Shown one piece after another: positions 28,241 through 40,365 of a stretch of 64,000 nt of DNA. The notes beneath the pieces were generated by a model. It made no database searches and had not been told where the DNA came from. It worked only from the letters and a program-made list of their open reading frames with translations. Source of the stretch: a virus; IMG/VR virus record IMGVR_UViG_3300043448_000837, positions 50,041-114,040 of that record; one strand, 5' to 3'. How positions within the stretch are numbered: the stretch's first letter is position 1; each line of letters opens with the position of its first letter. Both the position numbers and the translations under genes were made by a program.

Positions 28241-29332
28241 TCACAGGCCCAGCAAGGCGTCCAGCTGCTTGGGCTTCATTTTCCCCACGAATTCCATGAA
28301 GTTCGCGTACTTGCCGGCACGAATGCCGAACATTGCACCGGAAACATTCGGGTGGTTTTCGAGGACAATGCCCGCAAATTCCTTCTGGGAGTAACCTTCG
28401 TACAGTCGCACGAAGCCCTCAACCATGAACCCGATATCGCCGATACGATCGCGCAAAGCGTTGAACTCTGCGGAATAGTCGGGGAAGTGCAGCAGGAACT
28501 CGTCCAGATCGTCGTTCAGGTACAGCTCGGAGAAGTCAGGATCCCCGTTACCGCGAACGCGATGCAACTGAACGTAAACGTCGGACTTGACCTTGATTCG
28601 GTTACCGTTCGCGTCGCAAACGATGAAGCCTTCGTGGTCGGCACCGCGAGCGTTGACTGCGTCAACGATGTTGTCAGCACCGAAATTGAAGGACTCAGCC
28701 ACCCAGAATACGCGGGAGAAATCACCCAGCGGCAACTCTACGAAATCGTTCGCACGATCCCGCACTGCCAGCAGCCGTAACATCGGCTCGTCGTACTTCA
28801 CAACGATCCGGTTCTCGGCAGCGCACAACTCAAACACGTAGCAGTAATTCGGGTTCAGATCGAAAGCGTTATAGCGCATGTACCGGAAGGTATCCCAGAA
28901 CAGCTCTTCAAACGACATACCGGAATCACCAACGCTGCCAGCACCGCCGACAGAACCGGAGGTAGAAACAACCCACTGCACACCGTTCCAGAACAGTTTA
29001 ATCAGCGAGCCATCATACTTCTCGTATACGTTCGCGGAGGACCAATCAATCTCATCAGCTTCAGCTTCGCCCAGGTTGAAGAAACGGTCGAAAGCGTAAG
29101 CAACCAGGCGAAAGTACGGCGAATGATCACCGTCGTTATCCACTCGCTCTACGACGGCACCACGGCAAGCACGTACGATCGGGTTACCCTTGTCGGTACC
29201 AATTACTCCGTACTTCAGGTTGAACAAACCAGGGAAACGGTCGTCCGTAGAAACGCGGATGTCCAGGTCCGCCAGGGGACCCAGCCCATAGTCGTTCAGC
29301 CAGTTGATCAGGTTGTTTCGCAAGTTATCCAT
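28241..29332 (-). CDS. RNA ligase, T4 Rnl1-like (leaderless)
   Basis: CRG, RFFN, EKYDGS (motif I), FEL, NRIVV, EGFIV, IKVK. Confidence 0.9.
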   Translation of the reverse strand: MDNLRNNLINWLNDYGLGPLADLDIRVSTDDRFPGLFNLKYGVIGTDKGNPIVRACRGAVVERVDNDGDHSPYFRLVAYAFDRFFNLGEAEADEIDWSSANVYEKYDGSLIKLFWNGVQWVVSTSGSVGGAGSVGDSGMSFEELFWDTFRYMRYNAFDLNPNYCYVFELCAAENRIVVKYDEPMLRLLAVRDRANDFVELPLGDFSRVFWVAESFNFGADNIVDAVNARGADHEGFIVCDANGNRIKVKSDVYVQLHRVRGNGDPDFSELYLNDDLDEFLLHFPDYSAEFNALRDRIGDIGFMVEGFVRLYEGYSQKEFAGIVLENHPNVSGAMFGIRAGKYANFMEFVGKMKPKQLDALLGL

Positions 29333-29652: not shown

Positions 29653-29724
29653 TGGCGGCCCTTTTGTTGACGGAGTGAAGCCGAACTCCGAGGGTACTTG
29701 CAAGTTTGGACCTTACTTTCCCCG

Positions 29725-32400: not shown

Positions 32401-32573
32401 TTAATTAGATAGAAATCAACATCCACCTCGCAAAGTGTGGGTCCGTGTTTCAACGGCACTTGTGGGTGGCTCTAGGAGTTTAAGGAATGACTGCATTCCC
32501 GAGTTGCTCCCCGCAGTGTATCGTGGGGCCGACCTCATAAATCGGTGTTAAAAGCAACGCCGCTATTATAACG

Positions 32574-32599
32574 GAAAAAAGGGAGGCGTAAACCTCCCC
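32574..32599 (-). terminator. terminator of the tmRNA
   Basis: gggagg-tttacg-cctccc-tttttt. Confidence 0.7.
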
Positions 32600-32788
32600 G
32601 TTCGCTCAGAGTGTGTTGCTCAAACGGCAACAGCAGTCCTGCGGAATGAAACGATGTTGTTGAGATTTATTCTCACTTCACCCTGCACGGTCGATAACCA
32701 GTTTACCCCCGTGAAGTGGAGGTAAGGCGATTCGAACGCCTGTGTCGCACAGAGCGCCCCAGTTTATAGTCTTGTGAGAGGACTGATT
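32600..32788 (-). ncRNA. ssrA: Two-piece (circularly permuted) tmRNA
   Basis: The T-arm/3' acceptor (...GTTCGAATC...TACCTCCA, ending at 32717) precedes the 5' piece GGGGGTAAACTGGTTATCGAC. The acceptor stem has G3.U70. Tag frame 32664-32620 reads (A)LNNIVSFRRTAVAV*. Confidence 0.88.
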
Positions 32789-33289
32789 TCAGCGTAATTT
32801 TCTACCTTTACGGTAATTTTCTGGGATAGGGTCACCTACCCTTATCTTCAAGTTTTTCTCCCCATTGGTAACCCACATAGTGCCGAATTGAGAATTTCTC
32901 TCCCCTTGTTGGTGTTTCATTTCAGCAAGAGTTTTTCGTCTCTTAGCTTTAGCCTCAGGAGATAGGGCAGCTTTTACGGCTAGAAGTCTATTCTTGCGTA
33001 GATTATTTAGCTGGTTCGATCTGTATTCTTCGTCGTTTTTCCACAGGAACGAAGTTCTCTCCCACATCTTCTCTAAGCCGCCGCTATTTCGAGCAAGTTG
33101 GTTAATAATTTCTTCTTTTCCAATTTCTCCTACCAATCCCTTCCACGCAATAAAATCACGTTTGTCTCCCCATAGTTGCCAGTTGCAGTAATGAAACATT
33201 GCATGTTGAGTTACCGAGACCTCGACTAGGTTTGAAAGATCATCGGTTCCCCCTTTATACTTCGGCAGAATGTGATGTTTGTGGGTCAT
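32789..33289 (-). CDS. HNH homing endonuclease
   Basis: HKHHILPKYKGGTDDLSNLV...HAMFH; same family as the intron ORF at 50708. Confidence 0.8.
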   Translation of the reverse strand: MTHKHHILPKYKGGTDDLSNLVEVSVTQHAMFHYCNWQLWGDKRDFIAWKGLVGEIGKEEIINQLARNSGGLEKMWERTSFLWKNDEEYRSNQLNNLRKNRLLAVKAALSPEAKAKRRKTLAEMKHQQGERNSQFGTMWVTNGEKNLKIRVGDPIPENYRKGRKLR

Positions 33290-37081: not shown

Positions 37082-37153
37082 TGGGTCGTCTGAGATTCGA
37101 ACTCAGGGCCAATCGGTTAAAAGCCGAGTGCTCTACCGCTGAGCTAACGACCC
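37082..37153 (-). tRNA. tRNA-Lys(UUU)
   Basis: Loop CT-TTT-AA. Confidence 0.9.
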
Positions 37154-37554
37154 GTGGATCTCTGGCTGGGATGGTACCGCCGTCATTAACCTCCTACCCA
37201 GAGGTTACCAGAGATGTTGTTCGCTTTCGTGGGCCTGAGAACGGATTGGTTACCGCCAGGTGTACCTTTCTCGTGCGGCGCTGAAACGGATTGGTTACCG
37301 CCAACTTACCGCCTCTTGTCTTTCCGAAGGAAAGTATCAGGCGAATGGACTCTTGGCTGGGGCGATGCGTCCGTCATTAACCAGCTGTTCACTGATTACC
37401 AAGAGGCGGGCGTCCCTAGTCCCCGCGATTTGCCAGAACTGATGAAGTGGCCGGAGACCGAAGTCATAACCCACCTCTCGTTTCGAGTGCGTTTTAGCTC
37501 TTAAACTACGCTACTGAAGTAGCGGTGGGTCTGACACCACACGTTTCACTCTAA
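37154..37554 (-). ncRNA. ~400-nt ncRNA region with two duplicated RNA motifs
   Basis: 19-mer repeated at 37240 and 37285; three-way-junction motif at 37159-37213 and 37350-37405. Confidence 0.6.
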
Positions 37555-37626
37555 TAGTCCCAACGGGATTCGAACCCGTGCTACAACCTTGAAAGGGTTG
37601 TGACCTAACCGCTAGTCGATAGGACC
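37555..37626 (-). tRNA. tRNA-Glu(UUC)
   Basis: Loop CT-TTC-AA. Confidence 0.9.
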
Positions 37627-37998
37627 ATTTGAAAACCTTTGGCTCAGTTCATGCCGTGCGATTTACCCTGGACCGCATATCCAGGCACCAAAGGTTTTTG
37701 GTAATTTCTATTGAGTTTTCAAGTTTCGTGTGACCTTGGAGAAGAACCTCTTTCAACCACCCTTTTATCATAGCGCCTTTTGCGCCAGAAGTAAAGGGGT
37801 GGAAACCGCCCAGAGAGGGCGGGAAACCGTCCTAGTGACTGAAGCGTCGGCAGCGCCGACCTGGTCACGCACGGAGGTGGGTTTTTCACTTTTCAAGGTT
37901 CGGGGCGAGGCTTTCCTCAACCACCCTTTAACTATAGCGCCTTTTGCGCCAGAAGTAAAGGGGTGGAAACCGTACCGAGGGTACGGGAAACCGCCCTA

Positions 37999-38184: not shown

Positions 38185-38563
38185 ATCGAATTTTCAAGGT
38201 TCGGGGCGAGGCTTTCCTCAACCACCCTTTAACTATAGCGCCTTTTGCGCCAGAAGTAAAGGGGTGGAAACCGCCCAGAGAGGGCGGTAACCCGGTGGTT
38301 GTGTCCGGGTCCACACAAGAGAATCCCCGGACCGGTGACCCGCCAGCCGTAAAGCCGACGGAGCACCCAACCACCCTTTAACTATAACCCGTTTAGGGGC
38401 TCGAGTAAAGGGGGCAAACCGGCCTTTTCAGGCGGTTAACCGCCCTTTCGTCGCTCTTGCTCGTAAATATACTGCAGTCCAAGCATTGGAACAACAATTA
38501 CACCAAACCCGCAGAGTCCGAGCCAAATGGGACTGTCGGCAAGTGTGCGTACGAGGTGAAGCA

Positions 38564-39430: not shown

Positions 39431-39868
39431 TCAGTGACCTGCGAAAGCTTGGAGTAGATACAAATCGCTCAGAATTGATTCTGCCATCGCCTGCATGTGA
39501 CTACCGATTCCAACGAGCCGGGGGTCTTGACTGTTTTCTTCGCAGAACTTGTAAAAAATACCAACGGCGCTATTAAGAGCCATAAGGTAATCAAGATTAA
39601 GCTCCACCAGGGACTGCGCATCAAAAAACTCCATAGAGATTCCTGGACCTGAAAACAGACTGAAATCCGGGTCAAACCCACATGCGCGAAGGGTTTCAAC
39701 AAGGCCGTCCATCAGTTCTCCGAGATCGTTATAGATTCTCTCGAAAAGAAGGTGGGCCTCATAGAAGTTCGGACCCCGTACATTCCAATGCGAAAGACGG
39801 GCAACGATTATGGCGTCGTTCAGGTATTTTACCGATTTGTTGGAGTAGACCGTAAATTCTTCGTTCAT
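39431..39868 (-). CDS. dps: Dps/ferritin-like protein
   Basis: HWNVRGPNFYEAHLLFERIY...DGLVE. Confidence 0.75.
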   Translation of the reverse strand: MNEEFTVYSNKSVKYLNDAIIVARLSHWNVRGPNFYEAHLLFERIYNDLGELMDGLVETLRACGFDPDFSLFSGPGISMEFFDAQSLVELNLDYLMALNSAVGIFYKFCEENSQDPRLVGIGSHMQAMAESILSDLYLLQAFAGH

Positions 39869-39887
39869 GTTAGGGTTCCTCACTTGT

Positions 39888-40365
39888 TTATGATCGGTGG
39901 CTATGTTCAGGGTCACGATCAGGTTTTACCCTTTTCCGACACTCTTTGACATGCTCTGCCAACTCTTTCAGGTCGCAAATTAAAGAACCACTTTCTTCGT
40001 TGCATCCGATCACGAGGCCGCAAAGCGGGCACCGAAACTTGGATTTTATGTAATTATCTTCGAGTTTCATTTTATTTCCTATACACTTGTCGAGAATGGG
40101 CGTAAAGCTCCACCGAAACTGAATCCCCGTGCTGATGAACGGCCAGGTATTCTCTGTTCGGGTCGTAATTTGCCAGTGTTTCCGTCAACTTCTCAGCGAA
40201 TACGTCCTCGGTGTCCCTTTGAGGCAGAGAACGAAGAAACTTGAAAACTTCTTCCCAAGTCAGAAAATTGCAGGCTTCCGAGTCATAGAAGTGGCATCCT
40301 CTTTGACCGATATGTTTTTGAAAGCTACGCGAGAGGTGATTCATCTTGATACCGCATTGGAACAA
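39888..40365 (-). other. two hypothetical ORFs (39888-40070, 40072-40365)
   Basis: Tandem minus-strand ORFs. Confidence 0.55.

What the first reader, a model, noticed from the sequence alone, without database searches (positions are those of the whole stretch)
37154..37554. 400-nt spacer built from two duplicated RNA motifs (A-B-B-A)
Seen: motif A at 37405-37350 and 37213-37159 is stem-GGTAA-[variable hairpin]-GGTTAATGACGG-[var]-CCCAGCC-stem. The junction sequences are conserved while the helices differ but still pair, which is natural covariation within one genome. Between them motif B, TGGCGGTAACCAATCCGTT, is repeated exactly at 45-nt spacing (37303-37285, 37258-37240) and can fold as a mini-pseudoknot (tgg/cca + cgg/ccg). 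Inference: these are unrecognised aptamer, ribozyme or decoy motifs. Conserved junction nucleotides suggest ligand binding (e.g. a sponge for nucleotide immune signals) or self-cleavage.
Basis: partly seen in the sequence, partly recalled or inferred. Interest (0 to 1): 0.8.

Follow-up and report, generated by a model that had tools for sequence, protein, structure and literature searches.

The report
Modular small RNAs in cyanophage tRNA operon
The 400-base gap between two tRNA genes of this lake cyanophage holds several uncatalogued folded RNA modules; one is a hairpin shared with many unrelated phages and matches a very abundant RNA in lake samples, but what any of them does is unknown.

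Summary
Motif A occurs twice (37405-37350, 37213-37159). Its three-way-junction core is invariant and six helix pairs changed on both sides while staying paired. Motif B (19 nt) occurs twice exactly, 45 nt apart.

A-B-B-A is not a designed unit. Close relatives have tRNA-Glu, module C, one A, then UCCA and the next tRNA. This window has an extra 191-nt insert (hairpin, B-B, A2) that again ends in UCCA.

A and C occur only in five IMG/VR contigs of one narrow lineage. B is different: a plain hairpin, GGCGG-UAACCAAU-CCG(CC/UU), not the proposed mini-pseudoknot. Its 16-mer is in 79 IMG/VR loci against 6 for a reversed control. It also replaces the anticodon arm of a tRNA-like gene in Mu-like phages.

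No Rfam family matches any module.

One lake metatranscriptome has a contig covering exactly C+A1. Two others have a very deep contig equal to the B-B segment, which stops at 37301 in a sequencing adapter.

Best reading: small RNAs co-transcribed with the tRNAs and cut out by tRNA-processing enzymes, as with T4 rnaC/rnaD. Aptamer, ribozyme or decoy roles remain untested.

The scan has noted similar cyanophage tRNA-array modules on other DNA, but not these motifs.

The parts
37767..37795 (-). Nearest of four tandem sigma-70-like promoters (TTTACT-17-TATGAT). Sits about 140 nt upstream of tRNA-Glu.
   Evidence: seven promoter-like sites found against 0.7 expected. Four are on the minus strand, at 38409, 38260, 37959 and 37795. 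They lie inside the 82-nt repeats (family D1).
37554..37627 (-). tRNA-Glu(UUC); upstream boundary of the spacer.
37485..37553 (-). Leader with two small hairpins. Present in L047 and L051, absent in L052.
37406..37480 (-). Module C. Stem Ca (GAGGUGG 37477-37471 with CCACUUC 37450-37444) encloses a GAC-UUCG-GUC hairpin. Hairpin Cb follows (GCGGG 37426-37422 with CCCGC 37410-37406), with loop GACUAGGGACG.
   Evidence: Alignments. Ca keeps pairing through changes on both sides in L052 (GGAGUGA/UCACUCC). C is duplicated in tandem in L050 and L051.
37346..37405 (-). Module A1. A three-way junction of P1 (7 bp), P2 (8 bp), AU, P3 (5 bp) and CCAG, followed by the tail UCCA.
   Evidence: RNA contig of run X17 covers 37348-37502 with no mismatch.
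37304..37345 (-). Linker hairpin (CUUUCC-UUCG-GAAAG). It is the first part of the 191-nt insert that is absent from L047 and L051. CAAGAGGCGG at 37318-37309 is a perfect 10-nt complement of 37409-37400.
   Evidence: (inverted repeat I6).
37217..37303 (-). B-B cassette. Two hairpins with loop UAACCAAU: B1 at 37303-37285 and B2 at 37258-37240. Their outer stems covary (GUUG/CAGC against CCUG/CAGG).
   Evidence: RNA contigs of depth about 2700 and 2500 in runs X15 and X16 equal 37217-37301 with one mismatch and end at 37301 in an adapter.
37155..37214 (-). Module A2 with tail UCCA. One C then separates it from tRNA-Lys.
37082..37153 (-). tRNA-Lys(UUU); downstream boundary of the spacer.

Best explanation
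The spacer encodes two small non-coding RNAs of about 150 nt with the same plan. RNA-1 is C + A1. RNA-2 is linker/B-B + A2.

Both are transcribed with the tRNAs from the repeated promoters upstream. Host tRNA-processing enzymes free them: RNase P cutting at the 5' end of the next tRNA would leave the A domain ending in U-CCA.

The A three-way junction is the constant 3' domain, serving fold, stability or end definition. The 5' hairpins (Ca/Cb, or B1/B2) are exchangeable heads. The B loop UAACCAAU is most likely a recognition site for a partner common to many phage-host systems, so B-B would act as a two-site binder or sponge.

Shown: the anatomy, the covariation, the modularity, the distribution, and presence in RNA libraries.

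Inferred: the processing route, accumulation of this phage's own RNAs as discrete species, and any binding partner.
For: Operon context:
- Same strand as 29 tRNAs.
- Promoter-like sites upstream and no terminator inside the spacer.
- RNA contigs cover the tRNA-Glu leader.

A is a selected fold: six pairs changed on both sides while staying paired around an invariant junction.

Module boundaries:
- Relatives carry one A directly followed by UCCA and a tRNA. That tRNA is Lys in L047 and L051, and Asp in L052.
- The window's 191-nt insert is bounded by UCCA on both sides.
- C is duplicated in L050 and L051.

RNA evidence:
- The X17 contig is exactly 37502-37348 (C+A1).
- The X15 and X16 contigs equal the B-B cassette at about 100 times the depth of the leader. 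They stop at 37301 in an Illumina adapter.

B is a real, widespread element:
- 79 loci against 6 for the reversed control.
- It is in the sense orientation and intergenic.
- It sits on a tRNA-like scaffold in Mu-like phages.

Precedent: T4 rnaC and rnaD lie in the T4 tRNA cluster, and rnaD is followed by an encoded ACCA. Their function is still unknown (PMC9697503).
Against: - There are only three distinct A sequences and four distinct C sequences, all from close kin.
- Folding energies are unremarkable (z from -0.8 to -2.2).
- P3 carries mismatches in both window copies.
- Contigs cannot prove RNA ends or strand. The X17 contig has depth 3.
- The deep B-B contig diverges from the window beyond 37217, so it comes from another genome that was not found.
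- The end at 37301 could be a reverse-transcription stop rather than an RNA end.
- UCCA is conserved in a set of sequences that has diverged little.
- No partner for B is known.
Confidence: 0.5

Rival explanations
1. Passive punctuation. The modules have no function of their own. They only shape the polycistronic precursor so that RNase P, Z, E or III cut the flanking tRNAs correctly, or they protect 3' ends, and they are degraded afterwards.
For: - A sits 5 nt before a tRNA 5' end in every genome.
- Its helix plus NCCA resembles a minimal RNase P substrate (established knowledge of RNase P model substrates; not tested here).
- Most tRNAs of this operon are only 0-20 nt apart without such modules, so spacers are dispensable in general.
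Against: - A spacer that is degraded would not give an RNA contig about 100 times deeper than the operon leader.
- The invariant 8-nt B loop across unrelated phages and settings without tRNAs is not explained by tRNA processing.
Confidence: 0.2
2. Self-cleaving RNA. The 85-nt B-B cassette, or the sequence around it, cuts itself at or next to 37302/37301, as ribozymes that cleave at their own 5' end do. This would release modules without host enzymes.
For: - The same sharp end at 37301, running into an adapter, is seen in two runs.
- The cassette is conserved 84 of 85 nt while both flanks differ.
- B also occurs in phage contigs rich in ribozyme-associated RNAs: hatchet, RAGATH-7 and RAGATH-9.
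Against: - No match to any ribozyme family in Rfam, even at E<=10.
- By inspection, no HDV-like P1 partner and no hammerhead core can be drawn.
- Most B copies elsewhere are lone hairpins, too small to be catalytic.
- The end may be an enzymatic cut or a reverse-transcription stop.
Confidence: 0.08
3. Ligand-binding aptamer or riboswitch. The conserved A junction would bind a small molecule.
For: The junction nucleotides are invariant while the helices vary, as in many three-way-junction aptamers.
Against: - No expression platform and no downstream open reading frame; tRNA genes lie on both sides.
- No Rfam riboswitch match in the spacer, although the glutamine riboswitch elsewhere in the window was found readily.
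- The distribution is narrow: five contigs.
Confidence: 0.05
4. Selfish or neutral repeats. The modules are small mobile or slippage-generated duplications that persist without function.
For: - Copy number and order vary between near-identical phages: C duplicated in L050 and L051, and a 191-nt insert here.
- The insert is bounded by short direct repeats (UCCA).
Against: - Compensatory changes between A1 and A2 at 39% divergence.
- Exact conservation of the 19-nt B core while the rest of the tandem unit decayed.
- RNA abundance.
Confidence: 0.1

Closest known systems
Phage T4 rnaC and rnaD (species 1 and species 2 stable RNAs)
   Same: - Non-tRNA RNAs of about 120-140 nt inside a T4-type phage tRNA cluster, on the tRNA strand and butted against a tRNA.
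- rnaD is followed by an encoded ACCA, as A is by UCCA.
- Function unknown after 50 years (PMC9697503).
   Different: - No sequence similarity.
- rnaC carries a canonical T arm. A, B and C have none, and neither ARAGORN nor the Rfam tRNA model sees them.
- The modular shuffling of heads on a constant 3' domain is not described for T4.
GOLLD and ROOL large ornate RNAs
   Same: Phage or prophage non-coding RNAs often next to tRNA islands, highly abundant, function unknown (PMC12286853).
   Different: They are 500-800 nt with elaborate conserved folds and have Rfam models. There is no match here, and the modules here are 20-150 nt.
Ribozyme and RAGATH RNA islands of phages (hatchet, RAGATH-7, RAGATH-9, permuted tmRNA)
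   Same: - The B hairpin occurs in contigs that carry these families (L075, L091).
- This window also has a sub-threshold permuted-tmRNA match at 32555-32772.
   Different: None of these families matches the spacer. The association is by contig, not by adjacency: B lies about 4.5 kb from them in L091.
Non-tRNA RNase P substrates made of a helix plus 3' NCCA (for example the 4.5S RNA precursor and phage P1/P7 C4 RNA; from established knowledge, a lead only)
   Same: A ends in a 7-bp helix continuous with an 8-bp helix, followed by U-CCA.
   Different: Cleavage was not tested. The topology differs from a tRNA top half, because four unpaired nucleotides (CCAG) precede the 3' strand of P1.
T4 gp43 translational operator hairpin (5-bp stem, 8-nt loop; recalled from memory, a lead only)
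   Same: B has the same geometry. In several phages it lies about 20 nt upstream of a start codon.
   Different: The loop sequence differs. B is shared by unrelated phages and occurs where no open reading frame follows, so one autoregulatory protein cannot explain it.

Membership tests
Any Rfam 15 family (riboswitches, ribozymes, sRNAs) | Covariance-model match at or near the gathering score | tested here: not met
   Inside 37154-37553 the only hit is a chance-level mir-54 match on the opposite strand (16 bits against 70 needed).
tRNA or tRNA-like (acceptor stem + T arm) | 7-bp acceptor stem, T arm with a GTTCRANYC loop, and detection by ARAGORN or RF00005 | tested here: not met
   Searches give no hit in the spacer. 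A has a 7-bp terminal stem and UCCA, but no T loop, and CCAG lies between P3 and P1.
T4 rnaC/rnaD-type stable RNAs of phage tRNA clusters | Lies within the tRNA cluster on the tRNA strand, between or next to tRNAs | tested here: met
T4 rnaC/rnaD-type stable RNAs of phage tRNA clusters | Accumulates as a discrete stable RNA processed from the tRNA precursor | tested here: inconclusive
   RNA contigs match C+A1 (depth 3) and the B-B cassette (depth about 2700, from a relative). Contigs cannot show ends or processing.
T4 rnaC/rnaD-type stable RNAs of phage tRNA clusters | Sequence or fold homology to rnaC or rnaD | tested here: not met
   blastn finds only chance-level words. Folds are compared.
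Riboswitch | Aptamer in a 5' leader, followed by an expression platform and a regulated open reading frame | tested here: not met
   tRNA genes lie on both sides. The only open reading frames are unconserved ones of 45-96 codons.
   At the two positions after CCG, 19 and 23 of 24 intergenic copies pair with the two G's (GC or GU), which is the hairpin. The -1 base is mostly G, not U.
CRISPR mini-array or solitary repeat unit | Repeats of about 28-37 nt with spacers of about 30-40 nt | tested here: not met
   The exact repeat is 19 nt and the period 45 nt. The units are a diverged tandem duplication. Similarity to known CRISPR repeats was not tested.
Self-cleaving ribozymes (hammerhead, HDV-like, twister, twister-sister, pistol, hatchet) | Family consensus core and fold | tested here: not met
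   Searches give no match. The hatchet model did fire on L091, so the search works. Catalysis itself is not testable here.

The most novel reading that the evidence does not exclude
The B hairpin (GGCGG-UAACCAAU-CCGCC) is a portable RNA handle that many unrelated phages display: in tandem, on a tRNA-like scaffold, or in early-gene leaders. They would use it to bind or titrate one conserved host component or defence factor. The B-B RNA would then be one of the most abundant non-ribosomal RNAs in lake metatranscriptomes, and the A domain a new 3'-terminal scaffold that delivers such heads from tRNA operons.
Probability: 0.15. Interest if true: 0.85.

Novelty: new variant of a known kind. Interest (0 to 1): 0.58.

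Why it matters
Small RNAs embedded in phage tRNA clusters have been known since T4 rnaC and rnaD, yet none has an assigned function.

This locus shows that such RNAs can be built from exchangeable modules. It also identifies one module, the B hairpin, whose exact loop recurs in very different phages and whose tandem form is highly abundant in environmental RNA.

That gives a concrete, short bait of 18 nt for finding the partner. The partner could reveal what this whole class of phage RNAs is for, whether tRNA-pool protection, counter-defence or control of translation.

Tried and rejected
Searches for the spacer or its homologues:
- blastn of the whole spacer, of the B-B cassette and of the 30-nt foreign continuation against 50,697 phage genomes: nothing, or chance hits only.
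- Exact-pattern scans for the B-B tandem and for the continuation of the abundant RNA: none in viral, metagenome or genome collections. The source of the abundant RNA was therefore not found.
- A looser A pattern, and the A covariance model run on 19 related tRNA-operon loci and on five phage records: no further copies.
- Relatives found through the virion protein mostly lack tRNA arrays.
Contigs of Dps-gene homologues could not be fetched that way.
- Earlier-findings look-up by sequence returned only this genome.

B in other collections:
- B 18-mer in bacterial genomes: 40 hits, almost all inside long open reading frames (GGLVTA-type coding), with three intergenic hairpins. B is therefore not a cellular element.
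- Literature search for the B sequence: none.
- Proteins next to B hairpins: no shared family.

Ideas rejected:
- Complement of the B loop in this window: not enriched in a meaningful place.
- Promoter reading of A (GGTAA-16-TAATGA) and a transcription start at 37301: rejected on poor hexamers and spacing, by reading the sequence.
- HDV-like and hammerhead drawings of the cassette: no consistent P1 or core, by reading the sequence.
- Parts of the stretch without cover in the laid runs are not taken as evidence of absence.

Full report
**Context**

The window is part of a 114-kb IMG/VR virus record, about half complete. It is a T4-like cyanophage. It carries psbA split by a group I intron, a glutamine riboswitch, ribonucleotide reductase, tail-fibre genes and an Rnl1-type RNA ligase. 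Runs that hold the DNA are freshwater or lake metagenomes.

About 29 tRNA genes lie on the minus strand between 29.5 and 38.1 kb. The finding is the 400-nt gap between tRNA-Glu (37554-37627) and tRNA-Lys (37082-37153). Four promoter-like sites (TTTACT-17-TATAGT or TATGAT) lie upstream on the same strand, the nearest at 37795-37767. No terminator-like site lies in the gap.

**Observation**

A folds as a three-way junction:
- P1, 7 bp
- P2, 8 bp, closed by UAA/UUA
- AU
- P3, 5 bp (GACGG...)
- CCAG, then the 3' strand of P1
- an unpaired tail, UCCA

A1 and A2 differ at 22 of 56 positions, and all differences are in helices or loops. With the third variant (L052), six pairs changed on both sides and stayed paired, and 96% of cells pair. 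No shuffle of 500 reached the observed covariation. Slid registers pair at only 22-54%. P3 is the weak helix: it has an A.C mismatch in each window copy and is perfect in L052.

Thermodynamic z-scores are ordinary. The case therefore rests on covariation, not on folding energy.

**Relatives and modularity**

Pattern scans of IMG/VR gave mostly chance hits, plus four true homologues:
- L047 has tRNA-Glu, a leader, module C, one A, and then UCCA-C directly followed by tRNA-Lys.
- L050 and L051 have the same, with C duplicated in tandem.
- L052, from a different tRNA order, has tRNA-Glu, C, A, and then UCCA-U directly followed by tRNA-Asp.

The minimal unit is thus C+A, about 140 nt. C has a stem (Ca) that covaries between the window and L052, enclosing a UUCG hairpin. 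It also has a hairpin (Cb) with an 11-nt loop, GACUAGGGACG.

Compared with L047, the window has 191 extra nucleotides between UCCA and tRNA-Lys: a linker hairpin, B-B and A2. This insert again ends in UCCA. A-B-B-A is therefore two RNAs of similar plan placed one after the other, not a symmetric device.

The start of the insert (CAAGAGGCGGUAAG) resembles the start of C (CGAGAGGUGGGUAAUG). B1 sits where the UUCG hairpin of C sits. This suggests heads exchanged on a constant A domain; that step is inference.

A covariance model of A found only these copies in the five phage records. It found nothing in 19 further cyanophage loci, some of which carry tRNA operons next to the same Dps-like gene. 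A and C are lineage-restricted.

**B is something else**

- The 16-mer GGCGGTAACCAATCCG occurs in 79 IMG/VR loci, against 6 for the same letters reversed.
- About half of the non-redundant copies are intergenic. They are in the sense orientation relative to flanking genes. Their stems are extended by covarying pairs, typically GGGCGG-UAACCAAU-CCGCCC. This supports a plain hairpin with a fixed 8-nt loop and not the proposed UGG/CCA + CGG/CCG pseudoknot.
- The settings are unrelated:
  - freshwater siphovirus-like early or replication modules, about 8 nt after a stop codon and about 22 nt before a start codon (L098, L103);
  - large phages that also carry RAGATH-7, RAGATH-9, hatchet and permuted tmRNA, where B keeps the CCGUU form of this window and sits in a larger conserved element (L075, L091, L133);
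  - an 82-nt tRNA-like gene in which B replaces the anticodon arm, located between the repressor and the MuA-type transposase of Mu-like phages (L079, L095).
- In bacterial genomes the 18-mer is almost always inside coding sequence.
- In the window, the two B units are a tandem duplication of about 45 nt. Only the 19-nt B core stayed identical. The outer stems of the two hairpins covary (GUUG/CAGC against CCUG/CAGG).

**RNA evidence (all contigs, so ends and strand are hints only)**

- Run X17, a lake metatranscriptome from 2017, has one 155-nt contig equal to 37502-37348 with no mismatch. That is C+A1, stopping two bases short of the CCA. Its depth is 3.
- Runs X15 and X16, lake metatranscriptomes from 2025 filed under two studies, each have a contig of depth about 2700 and about 2500. 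It equals 37301-37217 with one mismatch.
  - On one side it runs straight into the Illumina adapter AGATCGGAAGAGC at 37301.
  - On the other side it continues into sequence unlike the window.
  - In the same runs the tRNA-Glu leader of a close relative has depth 20-30.
- So the 85-nt B-B cassette exists in another genome with different flanks. Its RNA is about 100-fold more abundant than the operon leader, which rules out DNA carry-over. It has a sharp terminus two bases into B1.
- If the libraries are dUTP-stranded, this terminus is the 5' end of a minus-sense RNA. It could also be a reverse-transcription stop.
- The source genome was not found in any collection.

**Interpretation**

The best-supported reading is that the gap encodes small structured RNAs. 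They would be co-transcribed with the tRNAs and released by the tRNA-processing machinery, with A as a constant 3' domain ending in U-CCA and exchangeable hairpin heads. The nearest precedent is T4 rnaC and rnaD. These lie in the T4 tRNA cluster, one of them is followed by an encoded ACCA, and they are still of unknown function. There is no sequence or fold homology to them.

The fixed B loop, kept across phages of very different hosts and even mounted on a tRNA scaffold, argues for a specific partner. No partner could be identified.

Other readings:
- A riboswitch is unlikely, because no open reading frame and no expression platform follow.
- A known ribozyme is excluded at the level of Rfam models.
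- A novel ribozyme, or a specific nuclease site at 37302/37301, remains possible.

**Relation to earlier notes of this scan**

Other first-reader notes on this genome describe the tandem promoters and a permuted tmRNA.
- The promoters are supported.
- The tmRNA gets a sub-threshold Rfam match at 32555-32772 (32 bits against 47 needed).

Follow-up reports on other genomes describe comparable uncatalogued modules in cyanophage tRNA arrays, with the same T4 analogy. None shares sequence with this stretch.

**Verdict**

The general phenomenon, non-coding RNAs in phage tRNA clusters, is known. New here are these particular motifs, their modular build, the wide spread of the B hairpin, and its abundance in environmental RNA.

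Noticed in passing
window 32555-32772 (-): Sub-threshold match to the permuted tmRNA family (RF04321: 32.2 bits against 47 needed, E 9e-4), at the downstream end of the tRNA operon. ARAGORN did not call it.
   Followed up: partly
window 37753-37834 and 37917-37998: An 82-nt repeat (88% identical). Each copy holds a GC hairpin with compensatory changes (CCGCCC.../CCGTACC...) followed by a promoter-like TTTACT-17-TATGAT or TATAGT on the minus strand. Two more such promoters lie at 38409 and 38260.
   Followed up: partly
L079:2248-2329 (+); also L076, L095, L105, L124, L136, L141: An 82-nt tRNA-like gene of Mu-like phages, between the CI-like repressor and the MuA-type transposase. It has normal acceptor, D and T arms that covary between phages. 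The anticodon arm is replaced by the B hairpin (a 13-nt loop, GGUAACCAAUCCG, on a 5-bp stem). ARAGORN calls it tRNA-???. Rfam's tRNA model did not report the L076 copy at gathering score.
   Followed up: partly
L075, L091 (IMG/VR sample 3300045988): Large phage contigs carrying RAGATH-7, RAGATH-9, a hatchet ribozyme and a permuted tmRNA within a few kb of each other. They also hold a conserved element of about 80 nt (GCAUUCUA ... B hairpin ... AAAG AAUACUAAC) that is shared with L133.
   Followed up: partly
L059:11806-11830: The loop of hairpin Cb (ACUAGGGAC) recurs on a different stem (GGGGGGG/CCCCCC) in an intergenic region of an unrelated GC-rich phage contig, about 30 nt upstream of a start codon. 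This may be chance.
   Followed up: no
window 29653-29672 (-): The sequence directly upstream of tRNA-Val(UAC) ends in ...GGGCCGCCA. This could be another CCA-terminated non-tRNA element butted against a tRNA.
   Followed up: no
window 28241-29332 (-) and 39431-39916 (-): A T4 Rnl1-type RNA ligase gene and a Dps/ferritin-like gene (PF00210) flank the tRNA operon. A homing-endonuclease-like open reading frame (32789-33289) sits inside the operon, as segB does in the T4 tRNA cluster.
   Followed up: partly
window 37409-37400 with 37318-37309, and with 37480-37471: CCGCCUCUUG, which includes the 5' strand of A1's P1, has two other perfect or near-perfect partners: CAAGAGGCGG in the insert and GAGAGGUGGG at the start of C. 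This gives mutually exclusive folds. Whether that is a switch or a by-product of module duplication is unknown.
   Followed up: no
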